Assembly (NCBI GenBank): GCA_000002445.1
Contig: AE017150.2
Span: forward strand, 832,001-896,000
DNA length: 64,000 nucleotides
DNA from: Trypanosoma brucei
Lineage: Eukaryota
Direction: 5' to 3'
In this document: positions 8,414-39,087 of the stretch, one piece after another
Position numbering within the stretch: position 1 is the stretch's first letter
Layout: each line of letters begins with the position of its first letter
The notes under the pieces: generated by a model
Told to the model about the DNA's origin: nothing
The model's database searches: none
Seen by the model: only the letters and a program-made list of their open reading frames with translations
Program-made: the position numbers and the translations under genes

Positions 8414-8841
8414 TTACAGATAAGACTACGTGAAAAGGAAAAGAAAAAAAATAGAAATTTAAAAACTGCACTCACTCACAGAGAATATACATTACACGTC
8501 ACAAGCATTCAAATACAGCACAAAAATAAGGTTGACAACGAGCTTCCGGTGCACACACCAACCCGTAAACGAATAACAAAGCACATCAAAAACACAAAAC
8601 TACCAAGACAATCGATAAGGTAACTGTATGCCACGCCAACCAGTTGCAGCGCAATGCTCATACTGGCAAACGTGGCACACGCTGCGCCAAGGCTCACAGT
8701 ATCAACAGTGATGTAATCGACAGAGCGTTACCAAATACATCACCACGACAGGACATAGCACACTACGGAACCTGCAACATTACGATATAGCTGCAAAACA
8801 AAACAACAGGAAAAACAATTACTGTATATCCACAACACCGG

Positions 8842-9870: not shown

Positions 9871-10412
9871 CAGTCAACTGTCACTAAATGGCTTACACAC
9901 AATTACTAGTTGTAAGTCCTTATATACAGTTGCGTACCAGAAGAGAAGAGGGAAGAGATAGTAACAGCAAGCATCCAAAGAAATGGGCGAGACGGTATAC
10001 AGGAAACATGTGTATGCATGTAGGCAGTAAGTAGAGCCCGTGCAGCAAGCAAAGGAAATGGTGAAACAGCACAATTACCGTATAGTGAAGAGAAGCTTCA
10101 GAAACACAAATACAACAAAATGTAAAGGGAAGGGAAGGAATAATACTGAGACCACACACACACGCACACAGAAAGAGAGAGAGAGAGAGACGTACAGACA
10201 AACAAGGAGAAAAAACTCCTCACGATGATTCACATTCCAACACGCGGCATACGACAGTTCCTACCGCAACCGCGTCGCGCCATATTAACGCACACACTCA
10301 CTCCATAAATGAATCAAATGTTCAGCACCCGCATCGATCACATCCTAAGCAATGCATTACTCAGTGCATGGCCAAGGGGAGAGTGCACATCCCAACAAGC
10401 TATAATAGCATC

Positions 10413-11393
10413 CTACTCAATTATACCACACAGAAACGACAAGAATAACAGGATACAACAAACAGGAAACGGCACCTTGTACAGAAGGAACACACTCAAT
10501 AGTGAGTACATCTCCCTCCCAGAATCAGGTGCAATAACATTCGTCATTCTGCTTGCCTCGCCGACAGCTGCTTCATACCCATTACTGCACCGACCGCTAG
10601 GAACAGTACCTGAAGCACAGTTAACAGGAGAATAAACCAATGGAGAAGCCGAAGCAGCAGTCTGATCCCCAGCACCCTTTGGGGAGTGACGGCTCCTCAA
10701 CGCTGTCGAAGGTGGAGACACCTCTCCTCCAGCATTCCTTACAGCTGAACCTAACTGTGGCTGTGCTGCCGGAGCTTTCTCCACAGCCGCAGTCTCACAA
10801 CCTTCCACAAGTCCTTCCACCTTTCCATGACTTCGCTTCATCACAAGGCTATCCGGAACACCCAACTCCCCATAAATACAGCGAAGTGCACACCGAACAG
10901 CATTCCGCTCCCTCGCCTGCACACGTCCACGTTGCTTCCAAAATGCAGCAGCGACGTCCGGACCGCTAGGGCCCTTGCTACTACAGTCACCTCCAAAGAA
11001 ACCACTCACAGACTCATACGGTGCCATAACTTCCCTCGGCACCACACATATATCCACGAACACCTCATCCCTTGTGCCAGCGTCTGGCAACTCCACAGCT
11101 CCTTCCTCCACGCCACCACGCCTCGCTGCGAGACGACGGAGCCTACGGATGTCAAGCATAAACTTCACCCTCACACATTCACCAGCAAATATCAGTCCAA
11201 CAGATGGTTGAACACCATAGCGATTGCGTACAGCACTGAGAACTTTGAACGCCACAACATTCTCACAAGGGTCCTCAGTACGTACAAGTAGACTACTTAA
11301 CTCGATAATATTCTCAATACTGGCATCCGTCAGAGGAGAAGGAAAGTACAGGCACTCCTGTGAAAAACAAACAATGCCCCCACCACCCTTCAT
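10413..11393 (-). CDS. conserved hypothetical protein (326 aa), copy 1
   Basis: Long ORF with coding-like composition and a polypyrimidine tract on the minus strand upstream. The copy at 33536..34516 differs by one residue (S to R). I recognise no domain. Confidence 0.5.
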   Translation of the reverse strand: MKGGGGIVCFSQECLYFPSPLTDASIENIIELSSLLVRTEDPCENVVAFKVLSAVRNRYGVQPSVGLIFAGECVRVKFMLDIRRLRRLAARRGGVEEGAVELPDAGTRDEVFVDICVVPREVMAPYESVSGFFGGDCSSKGPSGPDVAAAFWKQRGRVQARERNAVRCALRCIYGELGVPDSLVMKRSHGKVEGLVEGCETAAVEKAPAAQPQLGSAVRNAGGEVSPPSTALRSRHSPKGAGDQTAASASPLVYSPVNCASGTVPSGRCSNGYEAAVGEASRMTNVIAPDSGREMYSLLSVFLLYKVPFPVCCILLFLSFLCGIIE

Positions 11394-11893
11394 CGTGGAT
11401 GAAAGATACGAAACACTAATTACTCACCCGTAAGAAAGGACAGATACGAAATAGAGAAGAAAAACATAAACACATTCCCGGGAAGTAATGACAGTCACAG
11501 ATACAACAAGTATGAAAAAGAAGATATTACACCAATAATAAAATAGCAAAACACCAACCTCTAATACGGTCGAATAAATATAAACATATAACATGTCCGC
11601 TACGCAACAATTAAGCGAAACAAAAAACAATGAAAGGATAGAAAAAATACAGCGCAAACTTCGTTGGGTTGTCAAACAATTCAAAAACACAGATTATGTG
11701 GTTGCCCACAGCGCCAACAAATCATATAACCATGCCAAATAACGAGCTGAAAGCACTCCCCACTACGGTGTCATCCTCATGGTCATACCAATAAAGTAAA
11801 ATACAGAGCAAAAAAATGATCATACATACCATTCGAACGTATCATAGTACAATGAAAGAGTGACAAACATTTATGCAGCCACGCAACTCAACA

Positions 11894-12082
11894 TTACAAC
11901 ATATATATACAAACAGTATTAGGCATGGAGAAATACTCCTTCACATTAACAATCACGCGTCCATCATCACCATCAGCAGCAGTCACATGCAGCGAACACA
12001 CGGCAGTTAGCAATAATAAAATACCGCACAGGAGAGCAGCACGCGTAAAACCAAAATTCACCATACGGGTGTCCATGCTCAT
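11894..12082 (-). pseudogene. truncated 5' fragment of the lectin-like surface protein gene (first ~53 codons plus upstream region), copy 1
   Basis: Its 62-aa ORF shares MSMDTRMVNFGFTRAALLCGILLLLTAVCSLHVTAADGDDGRVIVNVKEYFSM exactly with the N-terminus of the 12902..13999 gene, then diverges and stops. It lies in a 395-bp element (11927-12322) repeated at 13845-14240. Confidence 0.6.
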
Positions 12083-12901
12083 TGTCAGTGTTGCTTCCTT
12101 ATGACTTTATCAAATACACACATATGCGGGAAAGAGGGAAGAGCGTGTGAGTAAAGGGGAAATGCAACAGTGACAATAGAAAAAGGAGTTACACAAGATA
12201 TCAAATAATCACACATACACTCGAGGATAATAAACAAGAAATATGAAAAGGATAACACAAATAATAATGGAAGAGAGCAGCCATATCACATATCCCAACA
12301 AATTGGTTAGTGAGACACAGGTACTCAAAACATTTATTATCATAATGGGCCAAGTATAACTCAGGGATTGAACACTATGGAACTCTCATTTAATACAACC
12401 TCATATAGATTGTTAAAATAATTAAGTGCTGCAAGTTACACGTATAGCAATACATCACACGTAACAGGGAGGACCTACAAGCCTCCCACATATACATGGA
12501 AGTAAAACATGAAATAACGCGAACTAAACATGACACCCACACACGAAATAAATAATCAACACCAACAACAACGAAACAATGGGACATCAAACAGTAAAGA
12601 TGGTTCAATGGGTCACACACTAAAAGAGCAATGATGTGGTCGGAGGGAAGTGATGCCACACATCGGAAGTCCCTCGCAGAGCCAACATGGTACAAGGAGA
12701 TCGTTAATATTAGGAACATAAAAGTAATAATTACATAAGAGAGTATTGAGCACTACTGAAAGTAATAATAGGAAGTGAAACAATACACGAAGCTAGAAAT
12801 TTTGACGGTCCGTAACGTAGGATGAAAGCGGCACAGTATTCATTACTCCACTTGATCCTAAACATCACTCAACCACCACCCATGTGATACACGATGTGAC
12901 G

Positions 12902-13999
12902 CTAATACGATTGACCGGTCATCATTTGGTTATAATATTGCAGGGCTAAGGGAGGAGCAGCAAAACCCTCTGGGGGAACAAAAGGTGTTGGCTCCAGGAC
13001 AAACAACGGCTCTCCAACAACTTCACGCAGCGTCATGGGAATGATCTCCTTTTTAACATTATAATCACAGAACCAACGTAAAAGGAAAAGCAGCAACACA
13101 ATGAGGGAAACAACAGAAATTAGAGCTATAAGAATAATGAGCAAATCAATCCTCTCTTCCAATGACACAGTTGTCACAGTAACTTCTTCATCCTTTGTCA
13201 CAGTTGGTTCCGGTACTTCGCCAGAGGCAGGTGCAGTTGTAGTTGTAGTGGTAGTTGTTGTGGTTGTCGTCGTGCTGATAGAATCATGGACCTCGCAAAC
13301 AACAACGTAGTCTTGAGACTTTGTTTCAAAGTTCTGACTTGTCCAACGAATAGTCCCAGAAGCCTCCCTGCCATCATACCAGGTAGTCACATCATCATCT
13401 TCATGGTACCATGAAAGGGTATACAACTGACCATGCTTGGGATATTCACTACCCCAAAAGGATGGGTAACCATTCATTGGAGCCGCAAAAGCGTATTTGA
13501 CATATGAACCACGCCAGAACGCCACCCCGTGACCATCAGGCAAAGCCTTTGCAAACAATCCCTTATTCCAACGATACACACAATGACGTGAAGATGCCGC
13601 GTCTCCAGGCTTACAACGCTTATCAGCCACAATGGCCCCGCCACTACTGTACACAGCATCTCCACCAAGGTAGCTGAAAGCATCCGAACCCGTTAACACA
13701 TCTTTCATTGCATCCTGCAAACTTTGGTGTGCCGCCTCCGTTTGATCGGCAGGAAGCACAGCGCCATTGTCGCGGCAATATGCTTCAGCATTGTTGTAAC
13801 TAACAAAGTACTTCCCATGACGACTAAATGCAAAATTGTCCATAGAGAAATACTCCTTCACATTAACAATCACGCGTCCATCATCACCATCAGCAGCAGT
13901 CACATGCAGCGAACACACGGCAGTTAGCAATAATAAAATACCGCACAGGAGAGCAGCACGCGTAAAACCAAAATTCACCATACGGGTGTCCATGCTCAT
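12902..13999 (-). CDS. type I membrane surface glycoprotein: signal peptide, C-type-lectin-like ectodomain, poly-Thr mucin-like stalk, single TM, short cytoplasmic tail (paralog A)
   Basis: 365 aa. The N-terminus has a hydrophobic signal peptide. The ectodomain has CTLD-like spacing (KYFVSYNNAEAYCRDNGAVLPADQTEAAHQSLQ ... WYDGREASGTIRWTSQNFE ... YVVVCEV). A run of 13 Thr precedes APASGEVPEPTVT, then the TM LIILIALISVVSLIVLLLFLL and tail RWFCDYNVKKE... The lectin assignment is tentative; the architecture is clear. Confidence 0.6.
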   Translation of the reverse strand: MSMDTRMVNFGFTRAALLCGILLLLTAVCSLHVTAADGDDGRVIVNVKEYFSMDNFAFSRHGKYFVSYNNAEAYCRDNGAVLPADQTEAAHQSLQDAMKDVLTGSDAFSYLGGDAVYSSGGAIVADKRCKPGDAASSRHCVYRWNKGLFAKALPDGHGVAFWRGSYVKYAFAAPMNGYPSFWGSEYPKHGQLYTLSWYHEDDDVTTWYDGREASGTIRWTSQNFETKSQDYVVVCEVHDSISTTTTTTTTTTTTTAPASGEVPEPTVTKDEEVTVTTVSLEERIDLLIILIALISVVSLIVLLLFLLRWFCDYNVKKEIIPMTLREVVGEPLFVLEPTPFVPPEGFAAPPLALQYYNQMMTGQSY

Positions 14000-15103
14000 T
14001 GTCAGTGTTGTTTCCTTATGACTTTATCAAATACACACATATGCGGGAAAGAGGGAAGAGCGTGTGAGTAAAGGGGAAATGCAACAGTGACAATAGAAAA
14101 AGGAGTTACACAAGATATCAAATAATCACACATACACTCGAGGATAATAAACAAGAAATATGAAAAGGATAACACAAATAATAATGGAAGAGAGCAGCCA
14201 TATCACATATCCCAACAAATTGGTTAGTGAGGCACAGGTACACGTCGTATTTGATACAATAGTGGAGAAACTAAAGCAGAAAGAATATACATTATTCAAC
14301 TCTTGTTTGGTACAACCCTACTGTGCGAGGTCACCCGGAGCATTCGAGAGTGATGAAAACCAAATCCTCGCCTATTCATTATCCACGTTAGTTGAGGGGC
14401 GGAAGTGCTGCGTACATCAACGCGCGGTAAGAAGCGAGTGAAAACCGACTTACATTTGTCGCGACCTTCTTCAGGTGACGTCCGTAGGTGTGCCTGATCA
14501 GGATACGGCCATCTAGTATGAGAAGTAACCGGCGACGCCGATCTATCCGAACAAATACTACAACAAACAGCATAGACACGGAAGCGGAGTGGGAAAGCAT
14601 CACCAGCTCAGTTGTACTCAGTGTGCCAATAGGGTGGTTTTTTTTCTGCTATAAAAAAAGAACTTGAAGCATAAAGAAACGATGGTCCGCCTCCAGCTGC
14701 GTACCGGCGCACAGCGGAACCCCCATTGAATTTAAAACATCGTGCAGGTGGAGGTGCGGCAAGTTTACTCCCTCCCTTCCCTTCATTGTCTTCTTGGGTA
14801 CCTCGCGCATGTCCCAACAAACCACACAATCTCCAACCCGAGGACAACCGATAACGGGCATACGCTTTGTCTCCCCGCAAAGTCTCCAAGCGCGCACGTA
14901 TTCACATCACTATCGCAGCCTGTCATATTGCATACAAGTCGCTGTGGCCTTGCGAAAAAAAGCTCCCAGCTAGCGTAAACTAAACTCTCTCCAAGCACCA
15001 GGAGACAGAGTTGCAAATGCACACCACCACTCAGTCCCAACCTCGCTTCTTCGATCTGTTCATCTGTCAACACCAGCTCTCCCAAGTCCGTTCATCCATT
15101 GTG

Positions 15104-25062: not shown

Positions 25063-26278
25063 TTTGTAAACCTAATATATGTTTACGCTATATGCTTGTG
25101 GGTAAGGATGAGACAAGTTGAGTTTCTCTCCTTCAGCTGAAAAAGACCAACACGGCCCACTCCTGAGTCCCAGGCTCCTTTTTCTGCTCTCTAATTTTTG
25201 TACTGATTTTAACTTGCAGGGGACGCATCAAAGAGGGAAGCAGAGATAGATTAAAAACACACGGTAGAGAAGGTCCAATGGGGCAAAAACATTGTGCAAT
25301 GGCAACAAAAACACCGGCAACATCACGCGAAGCGATGTCCGTTTGTGACTAGTAGGAGAGAACCCTTCGTCTTATCTCTTATCCGTCAAACACCCTGCAT
25401 ACACTAACAGAAATGACGATATATCATTCTGCTCTTCGTTGTTCCAGCACCAGATTTGAATTATAAATTACCACATCTCAAACATGTTAGCGTCTTCATC
25501 CATCTTTCTCAGTGGTTGCTGGTTCAAATAATCTGTGAGCCGGCGGGAACAGGCGGCCCATTAGCCATTACCAGTTTCTTTAACCGCTCATTCCCCTTCC
25601 CCCCTCAGAAAAGGAAAAAAAGAATCAGCACACTACCAACTGCATGATTACGATCTAAGTGACAAACCAGTGGTACACCAGCAACCAGAAACCTCTCCGG
25701 AAATGGCGGTACCACGTCCCGTATTGTGGAGGAAGAGAACGCTTAACTCAAAAAGGATGAAAGCAACCTCATTGAGTGGTAGCATTACTGTGTTAAAGGT
25801 AGAAACAAACGAAACCGAAAGAATCATTGTTCATGGAAAGGTTTACGACAATGACTAGGCATGTACGAGGCACACGCGCATATTGCATACAGTTGGCTTG
25901 CATACGGGTGTGATGGCTACAGTGCCTTTAAAAGAAAAAGAGAGTTAATGCACACGGTGCGATACCAGAACGTCACTTCCCCCTCTTATGGTTGGAATGT
26001 ACCATTTCACTTTCCACCTTCGTCTAACGCCATGAGCAACGAGCTCCACCATCATAACTACTTCGTTTTCCCTCCCCTCCCCATAGGCACAACCTGCAAG
26101 ACACCGTGACACATACACACCCGAGTCCCCAAAAAGCAACCTTCTTAGCGGCATTGCTACTGTCCAAGCACACACACTACGAACATTTTCCCGACCCCTC
26201 TATTTTCTGCTGATGTCACGCCCGCTTTCTCCAACGCAACACTGCAAAAATGCACACACGAATAGAGCTACGTGGCAC

Positions 26279-27289
26279 TCAAGAAGCGCTACTGTGCTTG
26301 TACTTCTCACCAATGAAGTAAAACACCCCACGCGCCAACTCATCAGGCAGCTGCCGGAAGGCCAAATGGCACGGTATTTCCTTGATGTCCTTGTTGCGCC
26401 GCTTCGCATCCGCGAGGTACTCCTTCACAGGCAGTCCTGACTCATGTAAATCTTGAATAATCGCCTTGAGTGTACGCAGCGCATTGTCGTTCGATGGGTA
26501 GTCCTTCCCCGTATCCATATACTCAGCACGAATAAAGTCATCTACAAGGATGGCATTAGCATTGCAATTTCGGACGCTCAGCGGCCGGTTTTCAACGATA
26601 AGTGTGTCCTCCAGCGGGCGTTTCAACCATAAAATGTTCTTCTCGTAATAGTTGTCACCCGTAAACCAATCTCTGTTGCGGACGATACATTGCGACACCC
26701 GTATACCCGACGGGTCGATCACGTTCAGCACCTGTTGCATGTACCGTTCGCTGCATGCTGACCACAGCACAACCTCCGCATCTATGAACGAAAGATAATC
26801 CAACAACTCCGCCAAGTAGGGTCGTGGTACCAAACCAGCCTTCATGCGGAACGCCTTGTCCCCGTACGATACAATTGTCTCATCAACATCCAGTACGACG
26901 GTGAGCCGACTTCGATAGTTTTTTTTCTTCGGGCCTATAAGCCCTAATAATCTCTTCTGCTTCTCCTGCAACGACCACAACTTCGAGCCAGCCAACATAA
27001 TTGCCACAAGGGTGGCCAACACGTAATAGCGAGCCCCACGATCATACATCATGCGTACCCAGTACTCTTTCATCCGCTTTGCACCATAGAAGCGATCGTC
27101 CGTGTAATCCTTCCACGCATTCTCCTTATTGGCATACATGTGAATAGGAGAGGCACTACGTGTAAAAATGTGTGCATCCGTATTTGTCCCTCCTTTTGTG
27201 CTGGTGCCCTGCGGGAAGGCCGACTGCCACTGACGACCCAATACGCCGGGCGCGCTGCGGGAAAGCCGGTGCAGACAGCGGCCATACAT
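26279..27289 (-). CDS. NIF/FCP1-homology (CTD-like) phosphatase-domain protein with an N-terminal presequence and single TM; TIM50-like
   Basis: 336 aa. Has the DxDxT motif in LTVVLDVDETIVSYGD, an NIF-domain body (VLWSACSERYMQQVLNVIDPSGIRV), a hydrophobic helix YYVLATLVAIMLAGSKLWSL upstream of the domain and an Arg-rich N-terminus. This presequence-TM-FCP1-domain order is the TIM50 architecture. Confidence 0.55.
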   Translation of the reverse strand: MYGRCLHRLSRSAPGVLGRQWQSAFPQGTSTKGGTNTDAHIFTRSASPIHMYANKENAWKDYTDDRFYGAKRMKEYWVRMMYDRGARYYVLATLVAIMLAGSKLWSLQEKQKRLLGLIGPKKKNYRSRLTVVLDVDETIVSYGDKAFRMKAGLVPRPYLAELLDYLSFIDAEVVLWSACSERYMQQVLNVIDPSGIRVSQCIVRNRDWFTGDNYYEKNILWLKRPLEDTLIVENRPLSVRNCNANAILVDDFIRAEYMDTGKDYPSNDNALRTLKAIIQDLHESGLPVKEYLADAKRRNKDIKEIPCHLAFRQLPDELARGVFYFIGEKYKHSSAS

Positions 27290-27869
27290 GGCTGTAGCCG
27301 GAGGTCGTTAGCAACTTTGTGTAGTGACAGAGTAGCCTCTCTTCACCGCCTTCCCTCCCTTCCTTTTTAGAGGGTGGTAAATCATCAGGCGGTAAATAAT
27401 AATAATAAGAACGAATAAAAAAGTCAAGATACAGAATAACGTTTGTACGTGCTCACACGTGTGTGACAGGGAGGAAAAATGTATTCTCTATAATAATTTA
27501 ACTACTCCAGAAGACGGACGACCCTTCAAAATCAGCCTCCGCGCACGCACGCTACCAACAACAAACTTTCGTGCAAATGATGCGGCGTGTACTTTAACAC
27601 ACAGACACACACCAACTTTTGGCGGCATTTGCAGGAAAGAAGGAAAACTAATGAACTTCACACATATATGCACAACAAAAGTGGAAATCAGCAGCTCAAA
27701 CAACAGCCCCAATGCCCTCACTCAAGAGGACAAAGCACTTTTTCATTACCGCGGGGAAGTAAGCCCACCAGTTTGAAGGGTGCGGATCTGAATGAGTAAT
27801 AAAGAATATATATATGTATATATAAGTAATGGATTGATATCGCTTGGCCTACCACTTTCTACAACCGCC

Positions 27870-28310
27870 TCAATCGACATGAACCCGACCAGTCTGACTC
27901 CTCCACCGCACCGCCAGGGCAAACGTGATAAAGTTGATCGCATACATTGAGCAGCAAACCACACATAAATCTTTCAAAATAAACACCAAAACAAATAGCA
28001 ACACAACCGATAAGACACAGCTACACGCACTTAACCACAATAAGAGAAGAGAACACCTGCATGCCATCAACTCTATCATATAGAAAGCGATACCCAACAA
28101 TGCGTTTGACACTTCCGGTAATCCAACCAGCCGGGAAATGGAGCGGTACTCGGAGGTGAAAACACGGGTGCATGAAAACATCCCGACATCGCAGTAGGCA
28201 CGGTACGTATCACCATATCTTTGCGCCCTATTTGCTTGCAACTCCACGTAGTAAGCATAGCATGACAACAATAAGTTGGTCATGATGAGGAAAGGCGGAA
28301 GAAGTAGCAT
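27870..28310 (-). CDS. vitamin K epoxide reductase (VKOR) family membrane protein
   Basis: 146-aa ORF. YRAYCDVGMFSCTRVFTS matches the VKORC1 segment YRALCDVGTAISCSRVFSS. It also has the VKOR CXXC active-site motif CVVCCSMYAINF (compare CIVCITTYAINV) and four hydrophobic helices. Confidence 0.6.
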   Translation of the reverse strand: MLLLPPFLIMTNLLLSCYAYYVELQANRAQRYGDTYRAYCDVGMFSCTRVFTSEYRSISRLVGLPEVSNALLGIAFYMIELMACRCSLLLLWLSACSCVLSVVLLFVLVFILKDLCVVCCSMYAINFITFALAVRWRSQTGRVHVD

Positions 28311-29374
28311 TGTGAAGTTTGTGCAGAATCAGTTACAGCAGCTCTATGCTCCGGCGAACCTTTCGTTTACTTTGTTCCGCTCACAACCTTTCGATTAATG
28401 TACAACTGCAAACGTTTCCTCACCACACCTTCTCCTTCGGTTTCAGTTTTCGTTCAGTTTAATGCCTTCAGTTTCTTATCGTGATACCACTTCACTTTTA
28501 TGTGATTACAACACACACACAAGCATGCGAATGACACCGATAGAGCTTCGATCGCTTTAGAGATTACCTAAACCAACGAACAGTCAGATAAAATTGAGGG
28601 TGAAGGCGCTAAAAAAAAAAAAGAACGTAGCAAAGGAGATTTATGGCAACAACCACGTCACACAAGTAGGGTAACCAGAGAGAAAAAAAAGAACAAAGCA
28701 CAGAGCAGGAAAGACGCAAAACGAATGGCAAAAAAAAAACATATTGTGACCAATGGTACTGAGGCAGACAACAATTATTAACGTTTAAAGGGAAGGAAAA
28801 CGCTAACATATCCGTGCGACATTGACGCCACCCCCATGTTGTACAGCTCTCATGCGCGCATACCCTTCACTTGAATTCTTCACGGCAGGTTGTCACCACC
28901 TACACACACACATAGTCGCTTAGGAGCGTACGCATGACACCAGCTCTAAAAAAGAAAAACGCTTCCCACACATGTGAAAGTGCACAGAGGTACCGATCTC
29001 ACGACGGCAAGAGGGCAGGACGCAAACAATCATCAGGATATTGGAAGGAGTACACAACAGCAACTGCAACGTCCCCTTAGCAGTGTAGTGGGAGAATGGA
29101 TGGGAAGAAGCGGTATGCAAATAAACAGTAAAGACGTAAATAGAAAACAGGCGACATCCACACCGGTGACCGTGGCAGAGTTTCACGTTTTCTGTGGACG
29201 GCTTGACCGCCCCTTCGATTACCTCACTTCATTTTCCTTTATGTCACTACCGTCGGCATTTCCCTCCCCAGTGGTTACGGTATGGAAGCGCTCCATGAAT
29301 TCTTCTACCCTACTTTTTGTCCATGCATTTCCCTGCGGGACAATGCCCTCATCACTACCACTGGGCGCACACGG

Positions 29375-30133
29375 TTATTCGCATTCCTCCTGCTTACAGT
29401 TAACTGCACGTAGGATGCGCTCACCGAGGAGTTCCTTGTCCAGCAGGCCATCTTCGCCTATGCAGCCCTCAAAACCGTAAATACGGTCGACTGCAACGTC
29501 GTTATGAAATAGCACGCAGCAAGGCAACGTTTTAATATGCAACCGCTCAACAAGAAAGGGTGATTTCTCTGCGTCGATCTTCACAAACTTCACGCTTAAC
29601 ATCATCCGCGAAAGTTCAAGCAGGCGGCTGTCCATTACACGGCATGTTTCAAAGTCCTTGTGATAGAAGTGCACGCAGACGTCATCACTCCCGCCCTTCT
29701 CTCGCACAACAATGCTAAAGAACTCATCTTGCGATATCTCACGGTATTGTCCATGTTGCTTCTGCCGCCACTCTGCCACCTTTGCGTGATGTTGCTGCAT
29801 TTGGGCCATGCGTCGCTTGCGGAGCTCCTCCAACTCCCCATCATCGTCGCTGTCATTTCTGTCTTCTATGTGCGTCTGACCGCGTTCCTTTCGTTCTTTT
29901 TCCTTTTCTGCCGCTGGATCGTACGCGGGGAGTCCGACCTTGCCATTGTTGTTATTACCTTTATTCATCATGGCCTCCACCTGACGACGGTGTGTTGGTA
30001 CCACGTCATTGAGGTCACGGTTGCGGATGTACTCTTTCGTGTTCATTTCCTCAATGGCGCTTGTCAGGTTCTGGTTCGCCTTGAGGTTTGAGGCCTCATT
30101 GACCACACCGCTGCTTTTTCCTGAGCCGAGCAT
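29375..30133 (-). CDS. phosducin-like / thioredoxin-fold protein (TXNDC9 / PhLP3-like)
   Basis: 252 aa. The thioredoxin-like core VCVHFYHKDFETCRVMDSRLLELS...VKFVKIDAEKSPFLVERLHIKTLPCCVLF is typical of the phosducin-like family. An acidic, charged coiled segment lies upstream. Confidence 0.6.
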   Translation of the reverse strand: MLGSGKSSGVVNEASNLKANQNLTSAIEEMNTKEYIRNRDLNDVVPTHRRQVEAMMNKGNNNNGKVGLPAYDPAAEKEKERKERGQTHIEDRNDSDDDGELEELRKRRMAQMQQHHAKVAEWRQKQHGQYREISQDEFFSIVVREKGGSDDVCVHFYHKDFETCRVMDSRLLELSRMMLSVKFVKIDAEKSPFLVERLHIKTLPCCVLFHNDVAVDRIYGFEGCIGEDGLLDKELLGERILRAVNCKQEECE

Positions 30134-30653
30134 AGCCTTCGCCGAAACCGAGATTTCAGTTGTAACTGCGGTCTAATGCTTCACAACGAGACTCCTTCTT
30201 GTTCCTTCTCGTCCTTGATCACGAAGGATTGCTTTCTTTCTTTCAAGACCCTCCTCACTTTTCACAATATTTCCTTATCTGCTGTAGCGGCGGTTATGTC
30301 ACTCCCCTACAGTGAGTACGTGAGGCGTTGCAAATTCACCCCAAACCAGTTTGCACAAGCGGGCACAAAATAATGACAGCAGGAATAATGCAAAGGATAG
30401 GAAAAAAAAAATAATGCACACAGCAATAGCGCCCATCAGTCCGTCAGGGATATGAACTTAGCAGTAGAGGCCTAAGTCATAAATAAAAAAGAAAGTTCCC
30501 TCCCGATAACACCAACAGCGAAGGGAAACTAACACCGAAGTCTCGTAAACAAGGGAGAAAAATGAGTAGTGAATGAGAGCCACATAAAGCCCTGCTGTGG
30601 GGCGTAAGTTGTATTTTAAATCTTTTCTTAAAAAAATCTGCGCAACAAATTGG

Positions 30654-31562: not shown

Positions 31563-31964
31563 ACTTAAACTGATAAAAAAACAGCCTTAACTACAAAAGG
31601 GATATGCCTAAAAAAAACCTAAATAAAAGATTCAAATACAGCACAAAAATAAGGTTGACAACGAGCTTCCGGTGCACACACCAACCCGTAAACGAATAAC
31701 AAAGCACATCAAAAACACAAAACTACCAAGACAATCGATAAGGTAACTGTATGCCACGCCAACCAGTTGCAGCGCAATGCTCATACTGGCAAACGTGGCA
31801 CACGCTGCGCCAAGGCTCACAGTATCAACAGTGATGTAATCGACAGAGCGTTACCAAATACATCACCACGACAGGACATAGCACACTACGGAACCTGCAA
31901 CATTACGATATAGCTGCAAAACAAAACAACAGGAAAAACAATTACTGTATATCCACAACACCGG

Positions 31965-32993
31965 TCACAGCTGCGCCCCATCACGCGTCCAGTACACCTC
32001 CCCACTCATTGCAGCCTCGTCCATCTGCTTCCGCTTCTCACCTTCAGGGAGTCGGTAATTCATAAAAACAATACGCATCTCCTCTGGCGTCATGTCCTTC
32101 ACCCAACCTCGTGCATTCAAGTAACGTCGAGCAAGTTCCCGCTCCCTCAAATCACGATGATAAGGGCTCAGTGGGTGGCTCGCTCTCCACAGGGTATCCA
32201 GTAAACAGGGGTCACGCAAACCCTCCTCAATCTGTTCATCCGTCAGTGGTGACATATTGGGCCGGTGCAACCGCTCAATCAGTGGTGCCTCTTCAAGTTC
32301 ACGCTGCCTCAACGTAGTATATTGTTCCATGTGTATACGCCTGTACCTTTCGCATTCCTCCGTGTACTGCTGCTCAGTCATATCTTTCACGGGGGAACTG
32401 TAAGGTGTATCTACGCCAATGAAACAAACACCCATCCGCCTGGCTTGCCCAACAACGCGTCGTACACGGGTCTCCAGTAACGGGTACTCTGGACGTCCCC
32501 AACACAACGGTTTCATTTTCGCTATTTCGTATGCCATCTCCAATGTCATCAGAGCACAGTAGTGCCCTCGCAGCGGCACAGGTCCCGTCTCCCGCCGCTT
32601 CTTCCGAAGTGCACGCAGAATGAACCACGCAGTAGGTGGCGGTTCAATTGTAAAAAGATACGATTTGTCAAAGTACACTTGGATGCGAACAATCAGCTCG
32701 ACATCTTCCTTGAAGTGTGGCTTCGTCCGGTCATTGAACACCTTCGCAAAATCCATCGCCTTCAGCCCAAGTTTCGAAAACTCTTGTCCCACGGGAGGAC
32801 CCGTCGCCGCCTTCCCAGCCTTAATAAAGAAACGCCAGTTGTGCAATACACGCTTCCCAGGAAATTCAGGTCGCCCAAATATATCCCTCGCCTTCTCAAC
32901 CACCAAAGCTTCAGGCAGTCGGTTTGAACCAGGTTCTACACACACCGTCTTGGGCCGTGCCCTTAGTTGAAGGACGCCACACGCGCGGAGCAT
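31965..32993 (-). CDS. ribosomal protein L11-domain protein (mitochondrial L11-like), copy 2
   Basis: 342-aa translation identical to 8842..9870. Confidence 0.65.
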   Translation of the reverse strand: MLRACGVLQLRARPKTVCVEPGSNRLPEALVVEKARDIFGRPEFPGKRVLHNWRFFIKAGKAATGPPVGQEFSKLGLKAMDFAKVFNDRTKPHFKEDVELIVRIQVYFDKSYLFTIEPPPTAWFILRALRKKRRETGPVPLRGHYCALMTLEMAYEIAKMKPLCWGRPEYPLLETRVRRVVGQARRMGVCFIGVDTPYSSPVKDMTEQQYTEECERYRRIHMEQYTTLRQRELEEAPLIERLHRPNMSPLTDEQIEEGLRDPCLLDTLWRASHPLSPYHRDLRERELARRYLNARGWVKDMTPEEMRIVFMNYRLPEGEKRKQMDEAAMSGEVYWTRDGAQL

Positions 32994-33535
32994 CAGTCAA
33001 CTGTCACTAAATGGCTTACACACAATTACTAGTTGTAAGTCCTTATATACAGTTGCGTACCAGAAGAGAAGAGGGAAGAGATAGTAACAGCAAGCATCCA
33101 AAGAAATGGGCGAGACGGTATACAGGAAACATGTGTATGCATGTAGGCAGTAAGTAGAGCCCGTGCAGCAAGCAAAGGAAATGGTGAAACAGCACAATTA
33201 CCGTATAGTGAAGAGAAGCTTCAGAAACACAAATACAACAAAATGTAAAGGGAAGGGAAGGAATAATACTGAGACCACACACACACGCACACAGAAAGAG
33301 AGAGAGAGAGAGACGTACAGACAAACAAGGAGAAAAAACTCCTCACGATGATTCACATTCCAACACGCGGCATACGACAGTTCCTACCGCAACCGCGTCG
33401 CGCCATATTAACGCACACACTCACTCCATAAATGAATCAAATGTTCAGCACCCGCATCGATCACATCCTAAGCAATGCATTACTCAGTGCATGGCCAAGG
33501 GGAGAGTGCACATCCCAACAAGCTATAATAGCATC

Positions 33536-34516
33536 CTACTCAATTATACCACACAGAAACGACAAGAATAACAGGATACAACAAACAGGAAACGGCACCT
33601 TGTACAGAAGGAACACACTCAATAGTGAGTACATCTCCCTCCCAGAATCAGGTGCAATAACATTCGTCATTCTGCTTGCCTCGCCGACAGCTGCTTCATA
33701 CCCATTACTGCACCGACCGCTAGGAACAGTACCTGAAGCACAGTTAACAGGAGAATAAACCAATGGAGAAGCCGAAGCAGCAGTCTGATCCCCAGCACCC
33801 TTTGGGGAGTGACGGCTCCTCAACGCTGTCGAAGGTGGAGACACCTCTCCTCCAGCATTCCTTACAGCTGAACCTAACTGTGGCTGTGCTGCCGGAGCTT
33901 TCTCCACAGCCGCAGTCTCACAACCTTCCACAAGTCCTTCCACCTTTCCATGACTTCGCTTCATCACAAGGCTATCCGGAACACCCAACTCCCCATAAAT
34001 ACAGCGAAGTGCACACCGAACAGCATTCCGCTCCCTCGCCTGCACACGTCCACGTTGCTTCCAAAATGCAGCAGCGACGTCCGGACCGCTAGGGCCCTTT
34101 CTACTACAGTCACCTCCAAAGAAACCACTCACAGACTCATACGGTGCCATAACTTCCCTCGGCACCACACATATATCCACGAACACCTCATCCCTTGTGC
34201 CAGCGTCTGGCAACTCCACAGCTCCTTCCTCCACGCCACCACGCCTCGCTGCGAGACGACGGAGCCTACGGATGTCAAGCATAAACTTCACCCTCACACA
34301 TTCACCAGCAAATATCAGTCCAACAGATGGTTGAACACCATAGCGATTGCGTACAGCACTGAGAACTTTGAACGCCACAACATTCTCACAAGGGTCCTCA
34401 GTACGTACAAGTAGACTACTTAACTCGATAATATTCTCAATACTGGCATCCGTCAGAGGAGAAGGAAAGTACAGGCACTCCTGTGAAAAACAAACAATGC
34501 CCCCACCACCCTTCAT
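33536..34516 (-). CDS. conserved hypothetical protein (326 aa), copy 2
   Basis: One amino-acid difference from 10413..11393 (SRKGPSG versus SSKGPSG). Confidence 0.5.
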   Translation of the reverse strand: MKGGGGIVCFSQECLYFPSPLTDASIENIIELSSLLVRTEDPCENVVAFKVLSAVRNRYGVQPSVGLIFAGECVRVKFMLDIRRLRRLAARRGGVEEGAVELPDAGTRDEVFVDICVVPREVMAPYESVSGFFGGDCSRKGPSGPDVAAAFWKQRGRVQARERNAVRCALRCIYGELGVPDSLVMKRSHGKVEGLVEGCETAAVEKAPAAQPQLGSAVRNAGGEVSPPSTALRSRHSPKGAGDQTAASASPLVYSPVNCASGTVPSGRCSNGYEAAVGEASRMTNVIAPDSGREMYSLLSVFLLYKVPFPVCCILLFLSFLCGIIE

Positions 34517-35016
34517 CGTGGATGAAAGATACGAAACACTAATTACTCACCCGTAAGAAAGGACAGATACGAAATAGAGAAGAAAAACATAAACACATTC
34601 CCGGGAAGTAATGACAGTCACAGATACAACAAGTATGAAAAAGAAGATATTACACCAATAATAAAATAGCAAAACACCAACCTCTAATACGGTCGAATAA
34701 ATATAAACATATAACATGTCCGCTACGCAACAATTAAGCGAAACAAAAAACAATGAAAGGATAGAAAAAATACAGCGCAAACTTCGTTGGGTTGTCAAAC
34801 AATTCAAAAACACAGATTATGTGGTTGCCCACAGCGCCAACAAATCATATAACCATGCCAAATAACGAGCTGAAAGCACTCCCCACTACGGTGTCATCCT
34901 CATGGTCATACCAATAAAGTAAAATACAGAGCAAAAAAATGATCATACATACCATTCGAACGTATCATAGTACAATGAAAGAGTGACAAACATTTATGCA
35001 GCCACGCAACTCAACA

Positions 35017-35205
35017 TTACAACATATATATACAAACAGTATTAGGCATGGAGAAATACTCCTTCACATTAACAATCACGCGTCCATCATCACCATCAGC
35101 AGCAGTCACATGCAGCGAACACACGGCAGTTAGCAAATATAAAAGACCGCACAGGAGAGCAGCACGCGTAAAACCAAAATTCACCATACGGGTGTCCATG
35201 CTCAT
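35017..35205 (-). pseudogene. truncated 5' fragment of the lectin-like surface protein gene, copy 2
   Basis: Shares the signal-peptide N-terminus with the 36049..37104 gene, then diverges to the same PNTVCIYML stop as copy 1. It has 2 substitutions relative to the copy-1 fragment. Confidence 0.6.
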
Positions 35206-36048
35206 TGTCAGTGTTGCTTCCTTATGAGTTTATCAAATACACACATATGCGGGAAAGAGGGAAGAGCGTGTGAGTAAAGGGGAAATGCAACAGTGACAAT
35301 AGAAAAAGGAGTTACACAAGATATCAAATAATCACACATACACTCGAGGATAATAAACAAGAAATATGAAAAGGATAACACAAATAATAATGGAAGAGAG
35401 CAGCCATATCACATATCCCAACAAATTGGTTAGTGAGACACAGGTACTCAAAACATTTATTATCATAATGGGCCAAGTATAACTCAGGGATTGAACACTA
35501 TGGAACTCTCGTTTAATGTAACCTCATATAGATTGTTAAAATTATCAAGTGCTGCAAGTTACACGTATAGCAATACATCACACGTAACAGGGAGGACCTA
35601 CAAGCCTCCCACATATACATGGAAGTAAAACATGAAATAACGCGAACTAAACATGACACCCACACACGAAATAAATAATCAACACTAACAACAACGAAAC
35701 AATGGGACATCAAACAGTAAAGATGGTTCAATGGGTCACACACTAAAAGAACAATGATGTGGTCGGAGGGAAGTGATGCCACACATCGGAAGTCCCTCGC
35801 AGAGCCAACATGGTACAAGGAGACCGTTAATATTAGGAACATAAAAGTAATAATTATATAAGAGAGTATTGAGCACTACTGAAAGTAATAGTAGGAAGTG
35901 AAACAATACACGAAGCTAGAAATTGTGACGGTCCGTAACGTAGGATGAAAGCGGTACAGTATTCATTACTCCACTTGATCCTAAACATCACTCAACCACC
36001 ACCCATGTGATACACGATGTGACGCTAATATTATTCACTGGTTCTCAT

Positions 36049-37104
36049 TTAGCCATAATATTGCAGGGCTAAGGGAGGAGCATCAAAACCCTCTGGGGGA
36101 GCAAAAGGTGTTGGCTCCAGGACAAACAACGGTTCTCCAACAACTTCACGCAGCGTCATGGGAATGATCTCCTTTTTAACATTATAATCACAGAACCAAC
36201 GTAAAAGGAAAAGCAGCAACACAATGAGGGAAACAACAGAAATTAGAGCTATGAGAATAATGTGCCAATTACTTCTCTCTTCCAATGACGCAGTTGTCAC
36301 AGTAACTTCTTCATCCTTTGTCACAGTTGGTTCCGGTACTTCGCCTGAGGCAGGTGCAGCTGTAGTTGTTGTCGTCGTGCTGATAGAATCGTGGACCTCG
36401 CAAACAACAACGTAGTCTTGAGACTTTGTTTCAAAGTTCTGACTTGTCCATCGGATAGTCCCAGAAGCCTCCCTGCCATCGTACCAGGTAGTCACATCTT
36501 CGTGTTCATGGTACCATGAAAGGGTATACAACTGACCACTCTTGGGATATTCACTACCCCAAAAGGATGGGTAACCATTCATTGGGGCCGCAAAAGCGTA
36601 TTTGACATATGAACCACGCCAGAACGCCACCCCGTGACCATCAGGCAAAGCCTTTGCAAACAATCCCTTATTCCAACGATACACACAATGACGTGAAGAT
36701 GCCGCGTCTCCAGGCTTACAACGCTTATCAGCTTCAAATACCCTTGTACTGCTGTACACAGCATCTCCACCAAGGTAGCTGACGGCCTCAAACTCAAAAA
36801 TTACACTCTTCATAGCATCCTGCAAACTTTGGTGTGCCGCCTCCGTTTGATCGGCAGGAAGCACAGCACCGTTGTCGACACAATATGCTTCAGCATTATC
36901 GTAACCAACAATGTACCGTTCGTGACGACTAAATGCAAAATTGTCCATAGAGAAATACTCCTTCACATTAACAATCACGCGTCCATCATCATCATCAGCA
37001 GCAGTCACATGCAGCGGACACACGGCAGTTAGCAATAATAAAATACCGCACAGGAGAGCAGCACGCGTAAAACCAAAATTCACCATACGGGTGTCCATGC
37101 TCAT
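36049..37104 (-). CDS. type I membrane surface glycoprotein with a lectin-like ectodomain, short poly-Thr stalk and TM (paralog B)
   Basis: 351 aa with the same architecture as 12902..13999. It differs in clustered ectodomain substitutions (SRHERYIVGYDNAEAYCVDNG, KSVIFEFEAV, SSTRVFEAD, HEHED). The Thr run is 5 rather than 13, and the C-terminus is shorter (QYYG stop). Confidence 0.6.
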   Translation of the reverse strand: MSMDTRMVNFGFTRAALLCGILLLLTAVCPLHVTAADDDDGRVIVNVKEYFSMDNFAFSRHERYIVGYDNAEAYCVDNGAVLPADQTEAAHQSLQDAMKSVIFEFEAVSYLGGDAVYSSTRVFEADKRCKPGDAASSRHCVYRWNKGLFAKALPDGHGVAFWRGSYVKYAFAAPMNGYPSFWGSEYPKSGQLYTLSWYHEHEDVTTWYDGREASGTIRWTSQNFETKSQDYVVVCEVHDSISTTTTTTAAPASGEVPEPTVTKDEEVTVTTASLEERSNWHIILIALISVVSLIVLLLFLLRWFCDYNVKKEIIPMTLREVVGEPLFVLEPTPFAPPEGFDAPPLALQYYG

Positions 37105-39087
37105 TGTCAGTGTTGTTTCCTTATGAGTCTATCAAATACACACATATGCGGGAAAGAGGGAAGAGCGTGTCAGTAAAGGGGAAATGCAACAGTGACAATA
37201 GAAAAAGGAGTTACACAAGATATCAAATAATCACACATACACTCGAGGATAATAAACAAGAAACATGAAAAAGGATAACACAAATAATAATGGAAGAGAG
37301 CAGCCATATCACATATCCCAACAAATTGGTTAGTGAGGCACAGGTACACGTCGTATTTGATACAATAGTGGAGAAACTAAAGCAGAAAGAATATACATTA
37401 TTCAACTCTTGTTTGGTACAACCCTACTGTGCGAGGTCACCCGGAGCATTCGAGAGTGATGAAAACCAAATCCTCGCCTATTCATTATCCACGTTAGTTG
37501 AGGAGCGGAACCAACACCGACCGTCACTTCGCAAAGACGAAAAAAAATATGCAGATACAGCATAACATATCAGCTACATGCATGGTTTATGTACTGGAGC
37601 ACAGCTGGACAGTCAGCGACATTTGTCACGTAATTGCGAAACATTGTCCGTTGTTTCGTGCTTGCTGAGAGACTCCTGTAAAGTACATACTCGTCAAAAT
37701 AACCTTAAGGAAGAAAGAGAAGAAAACTAGTGGCAAGCCTTTACGACAGTAGTGAAGTTTTTGCACAAATCCTTCATCACGTGCAAAACTGTTGTAGTCA
37801 TCATCTGTACACTAAATCATTGTGCGCGCCCCATTATTCATTGCTTACTATGTCGCTTTATTGCACTACGCTACGCTGTATAACCTCATCGTCTTGGAAG
37901 TAACGTGGGTCAGATGTGGACCGTTATGAAAAAGTCGTACAACCACCACACGTTGGAAGTGCCCGTGGCGAAGGCAGCGCCGTTGGAGAAGATCAACTTA
38001 TCTTTTGTCCACGTTACGTGCAAACGCAGTTACATCCTTCGGAAACCTTCTGAAGAGCATTAAACCTTCGAAAGACGTTACGCATTTTATCTCGGTCGTG
38101 CCCATACTTACGGCTATGACTCCTCAAAGGATAAATTGAGTAATTATATATGAGTAATCACTCTTCATTTGTCAAAAAAAAAAAGATGAAAGGAAAGGAA
38201 AGGGGGCAAGTTTTAAGATATTGATGTTGTGTAACGGACATGAGTTGCCCTCCATTCCATTTGAAAAAAAAAACAAGATATTTCCTTTATGTTACACACT
38301 CTCTCACATTGTTGTGATTCAGCATTATGAAGCTTACTGCTGCCACTGCCGCTGCCACGCGTTGATAACAGCAACAGCGAGTAGACGGTTTCAGAGGCCA
38401 CCCTCGCCATTTACCGTCCTTCTCGTTTACTTCTCTCCTTTACTAGTTTTGAGACTTCTTTTTTTTTTCTTTTTGCAGCTATCCCCGTGCCTTGTGTCCT
38501 TCGCGTTTGCACAACATAAAGGGGAACTTTGGAGGAGGGGGGGAGGCGATGCCTTTTTATAATGTCATGTGCTCTGTACGAAGCAGAGGAGGGGAGTTAA
38601 ACAGCGTTGTGCTGCTGGCACGAGACGGGGGTTAGACATTTCCTCCAATGCGCATGTCAAAATACACGGGAGGGCTCAAGCAATGTGCAGCACTCACTTT
38701 ACCAGGCAAACCACCTAAAAACAGTCTCTCCACCCCGAGTCAGCATCAAGAGCAGAGGATGGTTGGAGTTAGGATGAAAAAAAAAACTGAGAACGTGAAC
38801 AAGTTAGCGAATGTAAAGTTGAGGGAATCAAGGTACTTTCGTTTTTACACACACACACATACCTACCTACTTGAGCACAGAGCTAAAAAAGAAAATGGGT
38901 AAACTATTTCCCACGCTACTCCACACCATTCTGTCTGACGGAGAGTCCTATGAAGGCAAGAAGCGCCACTCGCTAACCCAACCCATTTCTCCTTCTTTAC
39001 GTGTATCGAAGTTTGTGGAATAAGAAGGAAACTCCTAAAACATACACAAACACACACACACGTATATATATATATACTTCACCACTC

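What the first reader, a model, noticed from the sequence alone, without database searches (positions are those of the whole stretch)
27870..28310. Small VKOR-family gene hidden in a 2-kb apparently intergenic gap
The 2.1-kb gap between the TIM50-like and phosducin-like genes holds a 146-aa minus-strand ORF. It matches vitamin K epoxide reductase (YRAYCDVGMFSCTRVFTS versus YRALCDVGTAISCSRVFSS) and has the CXXC redox motif (CVVCCSMYAINF versus CIVCITTYAINV) and four hydrophobic helices. Short ORFs like this are easily missed by length-based gene calling. A VKOR homolog in a trypanosome raises the question of its quinone substrate (ubiquinone?) and a role in ER oxidative folding.
Basis: partly seen in the sequence, partly recalled or inferred. 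Interest (0 to 1): 0.5.

Follow-up and report, generated by a model that had tools for sequence, protein, structure and literature searches.

The report
Known trypanosome VKOR gene, correctly spotted
The 146-codon reading frame is a real, conserved vitamin K epoxide reductase (VKOR) family gene of Trypanosoma brucei, but it is already annotated in public genomes and was described in 2004, so only its biochemical role in the parasite remains open.

Summary
A 146-aa minus-strand ORF lies at 27870..28310. It scores 53.9 bits (E 2.7e-14) on Pfam VKOR, against a cut-off of 27.5 bits. It matches the human VKORC1 and Takifugu VKOR-like crystal-structure sequences at E about 1e-13 to 1e-14. An AlphaFold2 model (pLDDT 93.4) superposes on those structures with TM 0.78-0.83 and rmsd about 2.1 A. 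The catalytic residues are invariant across 35 homologs: C40, C47, S53, C116, C119 and Y123, which correspond to human C43, C51, S57, C132, C135 and Y139. N69 (human N80) is nearly invariant.

The gene is not new. The identical protein is deposited for T. brucei (AAQ15942.1, CBH09543.1, XP_011771848.1, RHW74139.1) and is called as a CDS in two T. brucei-group assemblies. Orthologs are annotated as VKOR across Trypanosoma, Leishmania, Leptomonas and Strigomonas. Robertson (2004) reported the T. brucei, T. cruzi and L. major genes. Bevans et al. (2015) had already noted the active-site Tyr and the extra Cys after CXXC.

The most likely mechanism is a membrane thiol:quinone oxidoreductase that relays electrons from a luminal thioredoxin-fold protein through the two Cys pairs to a quinone. 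T. brucei makes ubiquinone-9. The acceptor, the cellular role and the localisation are untested. Interest is low.

The parts
27870..28310 (-). VKOR-family coding sequence, 146 aa plus the TGA stop. This is the T. brucei ortholog of VKORC1/VKORC1L1.
   Evidence: ORF listing. Pfam PF07884 at 53.9 bits, E 2.7e-14. PDB sequence matches to 6wv9 and 6wv3. The identical protein is deposited for T. brucei and called as a CDS in two assemblies.
28215..28301 (-). Transmembrane helix 1 (residues 4-32 in the model)
   Evidence: DSSP on the AlphaFold2 model, pLDDT 92-97. It aligns to TM1 of human VKORC1.
28170..28193 (-). Loop cysteine pair C40...C47 (CDVGMFSC). These are the shuttle cysteines, equivalent to human C43 and C51.
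   Evidence: Both are invariant in 35 sequences.
28152..28154 (-). Ser53 codon, equivalent to human Ser57, the conserved loop Ser/Thr of the family
   Evidence: Invariant in alignment A2. PMC4555119 states that Ser57 is essential for VKOR activity in vitro.
28056..28106 (-). Transmembrane helix 2 (residues 69-85). It starts at Asn69, equivalent to human Asn80, a quinone/warfarin-contacting residue.
   Evidence: Model. N69 is conserved in at least 90% of 35 sequences. The role of N80 is from my own knowledge of the 6WV3 structure paper and was not tested here.
27975..28052 (-). Transmembrane helix 3 (residues 87-112)
   Evidence: Model. It is the most hydrophobic stretch in the Kyte-Doolittle profile.
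27951..27965 (-). Active-site CVVCC: the redox CXXC (C116, C119, equivalent to human C132, C135) followed by a third Cys (C120, equivalent to human I136)
   Evidence: C116 and C119 are invariant. The codons TGT/TGC/TGC were read directly. The extra Cys was already noted for T. brucei in PMC4555120.
27942..27944 (-). Tyr123 codon, equivalent to human Tyr139 of the TYA motif
   Evidence: Invariant in 35 sequences. PMC4555120 notes a Tyr at this position in Trypanosoma and Leishmania.
27882..27962 (-). Transmembrane helix 4 (residues 117-143)
   Evidence: Model.
28609..28740 (-). Candidate trans-splicing signal: a polypyrimidine block (T10, TTCTTTTTTTTCTCTCT, TTCTTTTTTTTTTTT) ending in an AG at 28610/28609, about 300 nt upstream of the ATG. 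This is an inference, not a mapped site.
   Evidence: Sequence scan. It fits the usual trypanosome layout of a polyY tract followed by the first AG (established knowledge). No RNA data were available here.

Best explanation
This is the single-copy, single-exon Trypanosoma brucei ortholog of the eukaryotic vitamin K epoxide reductase family (VKORC1/VKORC1L1 type). It is a four-helix integral membrane thiol:quinone oxidoreductase. Family membership, fold and an intact catalytic residue set are shown here. The mechanism is inferred by homology. A luminal thioredoxin-fold protein (PDI-like) would reduce the loop disulfide C40-C47. C47 would pass the electrons to the CXXC pair C116-C119 at the luminal end of helix 4. 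That pair would reduce a quinone held between N69 and Y123 in the helix bundle. The net effect would be to make disulfides in secretory proteins at the expense of a membrane quinone. The most likely acceptor is endogenous ubiquinone-9, or vitamin K scavenged from the host. No vitamin K-dependent carboxylase is known in trypanosomes, so the likely physiological role is ER oxidative folding or redox homeostasis alongside Ero1 and QSOX, not a vitamin K cycle. My confidence in identity and the relay mechanism is about 0.95. My confidence in the oxidative-folding role is about 0.5, and in ubiquinone as the acceptor about 0.4.
For: Pfam VKOR scores 53.9 bits against a 27.5-bit cut-off, nearly full length. 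phmmer against the PDB gives VKOR-like 6wv9 at E 2.1e-14 and human VKORC1 6wv3 at E 3.1e-13. The AlphaFold2 model has pLDDT 93.4 and pTM 0.84. Foldseek finds only VKOR structures at E<=0.05: eukaryotic ones at TMq 0.69-0.83 (0.74-0.83, rmsd 2.0-2.3 A, for the top seven) and Synechococcus VKOR at TMq 0.57-0.68. C40, S46, C47, S53, C116, C119 and Y123 are invariant, and N69 nearly invariant, across 35 kinetoplastid, animal, choanoflagellate and other homologs. Orthologs are intact in T. congolense, T. grayi, T. cruzi, T. theileri, T. rangeli, Leishmania, Leptomonas, Novymonas, Porcisia and Strigomonas. Against T. grayi, pN is 0.32 while pS is saturated at 0.77. The gene order DSPc phosphatase, phosducin-like, VKOR is kept in T. 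grayi. The ORF is on the same strand as all 26 large ORFs of the window and has a polyY/AG signal upstream. The relay and the PDI/TMX partners of VKORC1, and its ability to support oxidative folding when Ero1 and PRDX4 are silenced, are stated in PMC4555119. Non-animal VKORs characterised so far are quinone reductases that use ubiquinone or vitamin K (PMC4555120). T. brucei makes UQ-9. Vitamin K synthesis is uncharacterised in trypanosomatids.
Against: There are no expression, localisation, activity or knock-down data for the trypanosome protein in the held literature. The T. brucei and T. congolense proteins lack the Lys-rich, KKxx-like C-terminus that human VKORC1 and the T. cruzi, T. theileri and Leishmania orthologs have, so ER retention is not evident from the sequence. 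The luminal loop is 7 residues shorter than in human VKORC1, and human W59 is replaced by Tyr, so partner and ligand binding may differ. The conserved Asn/Tyr pair is typical of animal vitamin-K-using enzymes, and PMC4555120 took it as a hint of true epoxide reductase activity. That argues somewhat against ubiquinone as the acceptor. The absence of a carboxylase in trypanosomes is from my own knowledge and was not tested here.
Confidence: 0.85

Rival explanations
1. The enzyme mainly produces hydroquinone as a membrane antioxidant. It would reduce ubiquinone or scavenged vitamin K to the hydroquinone to limit lipid peroxidation, as proposed for vertebrate VKORC1L1, and disulfide formation would be a by-product.
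For: It uses the same catalytic machinery as the best explanation. [quoted passage not shown] After the kinetoplastids, the next best hits include many VKORC1L1 sequences.
Against: There is no direct evidence in trypanosomes. The two roles are not mutually exclusive, and sequence cannot separate them.
Confidence: 0.25
2. It is a genuine vitamin K 2,3-epoxide reductase that runs a vitamin K cycle for gamma-carboxylation of parasite proteins, using vitamin K from the host.
For: The Asn80 and Tyr139 equivalents are conserved. PMC4555120 suggests that a Tyr at this position in Trypanosoma and Leishmania 'might' indicate VKOR activity. The eukaryotic-type fold is closest to warfarin- and vitamin-K-bound structures.
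Against: A vitamin K cycle needs a gamma-glutamyl carboxylase to make the epoxide. None is known outside animals and a few bacteria (my own knowledge; Leptospira is mentioned as an HGT case). Free-living-derived and insect-only trypanosomatids (Leptomonas, Strigomonas, Novymonas) keep the gene, which argues against dependence on vertebrate host vitamin K. The loop region whose animal-specific insertions correlate with epoxide reductase activity is 7 residues shorter here than in human VKORC1.
Confidence: 0.07
3. It is a chance ORF or a decaying pseudogene in an intergenic or UTR region, not a functional gene.
For: The ORF is short. Another ORF of similar length (168 aa, plus strand) extends from the same gap into the neighbouring gene with no family match. 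No transcript or peptide data were examined.
Against: The Pfam E-value is 2.7e-14. All catalytic residues are intact and invariant. Full-length orthologs exist across the family Trypanosomatidae. pN is far below pS. The ORF is 100% identical at the nucleotide level in three other T. brucei-group sequences, while the flanks differ by about 0.8%. Strand and synteny are correct.
Confidence: 0.01

Closest known systems
Vertebrate VKORC1 / VKORC1L1 (human VKORC1, PDB 6WV3; Takifugu VKOR-like, PDB 6WVB)
   Same: A single VKOR domain of about 150-165 aa with four TM helices. The loop Cys pair, Ser, CXXC, Asn and Tyr all align. Sequence identity is 31-36%, and the predicted fold superposes at TM 0.78-0.83 and rmsd about 2.1 A.
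   Different: There are four extra residues after TM1. The luminal loop/cap is 7 residues shorter, and W59 is replaced by Tyr. The TM2-TM3 turn is shorter. A third Cys follows directly after CXXC (CVVCC). There is no C-terminal di-lysine-type signal in T. brucei. No carboxylase partner is known in the organism (own knowledge), so a vitamin K cycle is unlikely.
Trypanosomatid VKOR orthologs (T. cruzi, T. congolense, T. grayi, Leishmania, Leptomonas and others), first reported by Robertson 2004
   Same: This is the same gene: 44-62% identity, the same length class, the same indels relative to animals, the CxxCC motif in most, and the same gene neighbourhood where DNA was available.
   Different: T. 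brucei and T. congolense end in ...HVD / ...HID, not in the Lys/Arg-rich tails of the other orthologs. T. cruzi has Gly in place of the third Cys.
Bacterial VKOR homologs (Synechococcus VKOR, PDB 3KP9/4NV5; M. tuberculosis VKOR)
   Same: The same four-helix core and four-Cys relay. They are shown biochemically to be quinone reductases that replace DsbB in disulfide formation (PMC4555120). This is the best functional analogy for an organism without a carboxylase.
   Different: Structural similarity is lower (TMq 0.57-0.68) with 13-16% identity. Many of the bacterial proteins carry a fifth TM helix, and many a fused thioredoxin-like domain, both absent here.
DsbB (E. coli disulfide bond formation protein B)
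   Same: It works in a similar way: a four-helix membrane thiol:quinone oxidoreductase with two Cys pairs that reoxidises a thioredoxin-fold partner. PMC4555120 proposes it as a circularly permuted relative.
   Different: There was no DsbB hit in the Pfam scan at E<=1 and no DsbB structure among the Foldseek matches. The ORF is not a DsbB family member.

Membership tests
VKOR family (Pfam PF07884) | Sequence matches the family HMM above the curated gathering score over most of the domain | tested here: met
   53.9 bits against a 27.5-bit cut-off, E 2.7e-14, residues 10-133 on profile positions 8-133 of 134.
VKOR family (Pfam PF07884) | Four conserved cysteines: a loop pair plus a CXXC at the start of TM4 | tested here: met
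   C40, C47, C116 and C119 are invariant in 35 sequences and align with human C43, C51, C132 and C135.
VKOR family (Pfam PF07884) | Conserved loop Ser/Thr (human Ser57) | tested here: met
   S53 is invariant and aligns with human S57.
VKOR family (Pfam PF07884) | Four-transmembrane-helix bundle with a luminal loop/cap between TM1 and TM2 | tested here: met
   The AlphaFold2 model has helices at 4-32, 69-85, 87-112 and 117-143 plus short loop helices, pLDDT 93.4. Foldseek matches VKOR structures only, top TMq 0.83. This is a predicted structure, not an experimental one.
Animal-type VKORC1/VKORC1L1 subgroup | Substrate/warfarin-contacting Asn80 and Tyr139 (TYA motif) | tested here: met
   N69 is conserved in at least 90% of sequences and Y123 is invariant. 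The motif reads MYA instead of TYA. The ligand-contact role is from my own knowledge of the 6WV3 paper.
Animal-type VKORC1/VKORC1L1 subgroup | Full-length luminal loop with the animal-specific insertions that correlate with epoxide reductase activity (PMC4555120) | tested here: inconclusive
   The loop is 7 residues shorter than in human VKORC1 (gaps of 4 and 3) and W59 is replaced by Tyr. It still models as a cap over the bundle.
Animal-type VKORC1/VKORC1L1 subgroup | C-terminal di-lysine ER retention signal (human KAKRH) | tested here: not met
   The T. brucei protein ends RSQTGRVHVD, with no Lys in the last 30 residues. Other trypanosomatid orthologs do have Lys-rich tails. This is not a family-defining feature, and localisation itself could not be tested.
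VKOR family (function) | Thiol-dependent reduction of a quinone or of vitamin K epoxide; warfarin sensitivity | not testable with these tools
   This needs a biochemical assay. No such data for a trypanosomatid enzyme were found in the held literature.
Vitamin K cycle (VKOR + GGCX system) | A gamma-glutamyl carboxylase (PF05090) in the same genome | not tested
   Only a 64-kb window is available and no tool searches the T. brucei genome. The absence of a carboxylase is from my own knowledge only.
DsbB family | Match to the DsbB profile or fold | tested here: not met
   Only VKOR was reported in the Pfam scan at E<=1. No DsbB structure appeared among the Foldseek matches.

The most novel reading that the evidence does not exclude
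The trypanosomatid VKOR works without any carboxylase as a ubiquinone-linked (or host-vitamin-K-linked) ER disulfide generator or membrane antioxidant. Its shortened cap loop and CxxCC active site would give it a partner and ligand specificity distinct from the host enzyme. That would make it a parasite-specific, coumarin-class-druggable redox node. The idea has been hinted at in reviews but, as far as the held literature shows, never tested.
Probability: 0.35. Interest if true: 0.4.

Novelty: already known. Interest (0 to 1): 0.1.

Why it matters
As a discovery it does not matter. The gene is annotated, is named in UniRef as a VKOR, and has been discussed in the literature since 2004. Its residual value is as a reminder of an open biochemical question. 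Trypanosomatids, including insect-only lineages, keep an animal-type VKOR with an intact active site, although they are not known to make vitamin K or to carboxylate proteins. Which quinone the enzyme uses, and whether it backs up Ero1 and QSOX in folding the disulfide-rich surface coat proteins, is still untested. The result also shows that the first-stage reader can recognise a small membrane enzyme from raw sequence.

Tried and rejected
1. The primary paper, Robertson 2004 (PMC1448852), is not held. Its content is cited only through PMC4555119 and PMC4555120.
2. Literature searches for experimental work found nothing on a trypanosomatid VKOR. The searches were VKOR + T. brucei + Ero1, 'vitamin K epoxide reductase' + Tb927, and VKOR + warfarin + Leishmania.
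3. I tried to anchor the locus to a Tb927 gene ID through the neighbour (TbTim50 + Tb927.2). The hits were unrelated table entries. I therefore do not claim that the NIF-domain neighbour is TbTim50 itself, only that it is NIF/FCP1-like.
4. An Rfam scan of 26000-30500 at E<=1 found no hits, so there is no evidence of a structured RNA in the gap.
5. dN/dS against T. grayi could not be given as a ratio because synonymous sites are saturated (pS 0.765). Only pN < pS is reported.
6. A Foldseek search of afdb50, meant to retrieve the UniProt entry, failed because the library is not installed.
7. I considered the adjacent phosducin/thioredoxin-fold gene as a redox partner and rejected it. It has no CxxC in its sequence. 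It is a phosducin-like, presumably cytosolic, protein. Conserved gene order in trypanosomatid polycistrons carries no functional implication (established knowledge).
8. I considered spending the last large protein search on human GGCX and rejected it. Metazoan hits would swamp the list, and absence from a capped hit table would not prove absence in kinetoplastids.
9. Other ORFs in the gap were considered and rejected: 66 aa at 28609-28809, 88 aa at 28920-29186 and 168 aa at 28974-29480 on the plus strand. The first is just the translated polypyrimidine tract. None is called in the T. b. gambiense or T. equiperdum annotations.

Full report
**Observation.** The window holds a 146-codon ATG-initiated ORF on the minus strand at 27870..28310, with the stop codon included. 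I read the DNA directly. An in-frame stop lies six codons upstream of the ATG, so no longer version of the protein is possible. ORF length alone would not be convincing, because a 168-aa plus-strand ORF with no family match extends from the same gap into the phosducin-like gene.

**Family assignment.**
- The protein hits Pfam VKOR (PF07884) at 53.9 bits, E 2.7e-14. The gathering score is 27.5 bits, and the match covers profile positions 8-133 of 134. No other family appears at E<=1.
- Against PDB sequences it matches the Takifugu VKOR-like protein (6wv9, E 2.1e-14) and human VKORC1 (6wv3, E 3.1e-13). No other molecule is matched at E<=1.
- An AlphaFold2 model built on a 35-sequence alignment is confident, with mean pLDDT 93.4 and pTM 0.84. 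It shows four long helices (residues 4-32, 69-85, 87-112, 117-143) plus short loop elements.
- Foldseek against the PDB returns only VKOR structures at E<=0.05. The eukaryotic ones give TMq 0.69-0.83 (rmsd 2.0-2.3 A for the top seven), and Synechococcus VKOR gives TMq 0.57-0.68.

**Catalytic residues.** In the 35-sequence alignment the invariant columns are C40, S46, C47, S53, C116, C119 and Y123, and N69 is among the near-invariant ones. Aligned to it, these residues correspond to C43, S50, C51, S57, C132, C135, Y139 and N80. That is the complete loop-Cys pair, Ser, CXXC and the Asn/Tyr substrate pocket. Relative to the human enzyme, the trypanosomatid proteins differ in five ways:
- There are four extra residues after TM1.
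- The luminal loop is 7 residues shorter, and W59 is replaced by Tyr.
- The TM2-TM3 turn is shorter.
- In most species a third Cys follows directly after CXXC.
- T. brucei and T. congolense lack the Lys-rich C-terminal tail that the human, T. cruzi, T. theileri and Leishmania proteins have.

**Is it a real gene?**
- Orthologs are full length and intact in T. equiperdum (99%), T. congolense (60%), T. grayi (60%), T. cruzi, T. theileri, T. melophagium, T. conorhini, T. rangeli, Leptomonas, Novymonas, Porcisia, Leishmania and Strigomonas.
- Against T. grayi, nonsynonymous divergence is 0.32 while synonymous sites are saturated at 0.77.
- The ORF is nucleotide-identical in three other T. brucei-group sequences, while the surrounding 8 kb differs by about 0.8%.
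- The neighbourhood DSPc phosphatase, phosducin-like, VKOR, (NIF phosphatase) is shared with T. grayi.
- All 26 ORFs of at least 220 aa in the window are on the minus strand, as is this one.
- A dense polypyrimidine block (about 28740-28611) ending in an AG at 28610/28609 lies about 300 nt upstream of the ATG. This is the expected layout for a spliced-leader acceptor, but it is an inference without RNA data.
- Rfam finds nothing in the gap.

**Is it new?** No.
- The identical 146-aa protein is in NCBI as AAQ15942.1, CBH09543.1, XP_011771848.1 and RHW74139.1. UniRef names it 'vitamin-K-epoxide reductase (warfarin-sensitive)' for Trypanosoma brucei.
- It is a called CDS with a precomputed Pfam VKOR hit in T. 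b. gambiense DAL972 (FN554965.1) and T. equiperdum (CM010673.1).
- The window is about 99.2-99.4% identical to both assemblies. It is therefore a T. brucei-group chromosome, probably chromosome 2 of another strain, given the 1.19-Mb contig.
[quoted passage not shown] This is according to PMC4555119 and PMC4555120; the paper itself is not held.
- Bevans et al. 2015 (PMC4555120) already singled out the active-site Tyr in Trypanosoma and Leishmania, and the Cys immediately after CXXC in T. brucei.
- A 2019 review (PMC6832408) lists the T. cruzi and L. donovani entries and poses the vitamin K question.

**Mechanism.** What is shown here is family membership, the predicted fold and a complete catalytic residue set. 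The rest is inferred by homology.
- PMC4555119 describes the four cysteines of VKORC1 as a double disulfide relay. The relay takes reducing equivalents from ER thioredoxin-fold oxidoreductases (PDI, TMX, TMX4, ERp18) and passes them to the membrane quinone. VKORC1 can sustain oxidative protein folding when Ero1 and PRDX4 are silenced.
- Non-animal VKORs characterised so far are quinone reductases without epoxide reductase activity.
- T. brucei synthesises ubiquinone-9, and vitamin K synthesis has not been characterised in trypanosomatids.
- To my knowledge a gamma-glutamyl carboxylase is not known in these organisms, so no epoxide would be produced. I did not test this.
- I therefore favour a thiol:quinone oxidoreductase that supports ER disulfide formation or redox homeostasis, with ubiquinone-9 or scavenged vitamin K as acceptor.
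- Retention of the gene in insect-only trypanosomatids argues against dependence on vertebrate vitamin K.
- Rivals are an antioxidant hydroquinone-generating role (VKORC1L1-like), a true vitamin K cycle (unlikely), and a non-functional ORF (effectively excluded).

**Neighbour check.** The adjacent phosducin/thioredoxin-fold gene is not a plausible redox partner. It has no CxxC, and gene order in trypanosome polycistrons does not imply shared function.

**Verdict.** The novelty category is 'already known' and the interest is low. The only open matter is the long-standing, untested question of what the enzyme does in a carboxylase-less protist.

Noticed in passing
window 8503-14404 and 31627-37510: There is a direct segmental duplication of about 5.9 kb at 98.1% identity. 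It carries the same 342-aa (ribosomal L11-domain) and 326-aa ORFs twice. The VKOR gene lies in the 17-kb unique stretch between the two copies.
   Followed up: partly
window about 26105 (minus strand), versus L001 6215-6405 and L002: The window lacks about 190 bp that are present in the T. b. gambiense and T. equiperdum assemblies. The missing stretch is bounded by the short direct repeat TGTCACGGTG. The deletion removes most of a 122-aa 'gene' called in the gambiense annotation (L001 6203-6571, no Pfam hit), which suggests that call is not a real gene.
   Followed up: partly
window 27870-27872 (stop codon); protein P0006: A 153-aa variant of the same protein occurs on 6 short Logan contigs. 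It ends ...HVDWGGCRKW, consistent with a stop-loss change (TGA to TGG) that reads through to the next in-frame TAG at window 27849-27851. Whether it is a real strain polymorphism or an assembly or read error was not checked.
   Followed up: no
window 28509-28526 (minus strand): The putative 5' UTR holds a single upstream ATG that opens a 6-codon uORF (MLVCVL), in frame with the main ORF but terminated well before it.
   Followed up: no
C-termini of orthologs (alignment A3): The African salivarian trypanosome proteins (T. brucei ...RVHVD, T. congolense ...RPHID) lack the Lys/Arg-rich tails of T. cruzi, T. theileri, T. rangeli, Leishmania and Leptomonas, which resemble di-lysine ER retrieval signals. 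This may point to a different retention mechanism or localisation.
   Followed up: no
window 26279-27289 (minus strand): The NIF/FCP1-like phosphatase neighbour has an Arg-rich N-terminus and one hydrophobic segment (YYVLATLVAIMLAGSKLWSL) before the phosphatase domain. That is a Tim50-like architecture. I could not confirm from the held literature that it is the published TbTim50.
   Followed up: partly
window 1-64000: All 26 ORFs of at least 220 aa are on the minus strand. The window therefore lies inside a single directional (polycistronic) gene cluster, with no strand-switch region.
   Followed up: no
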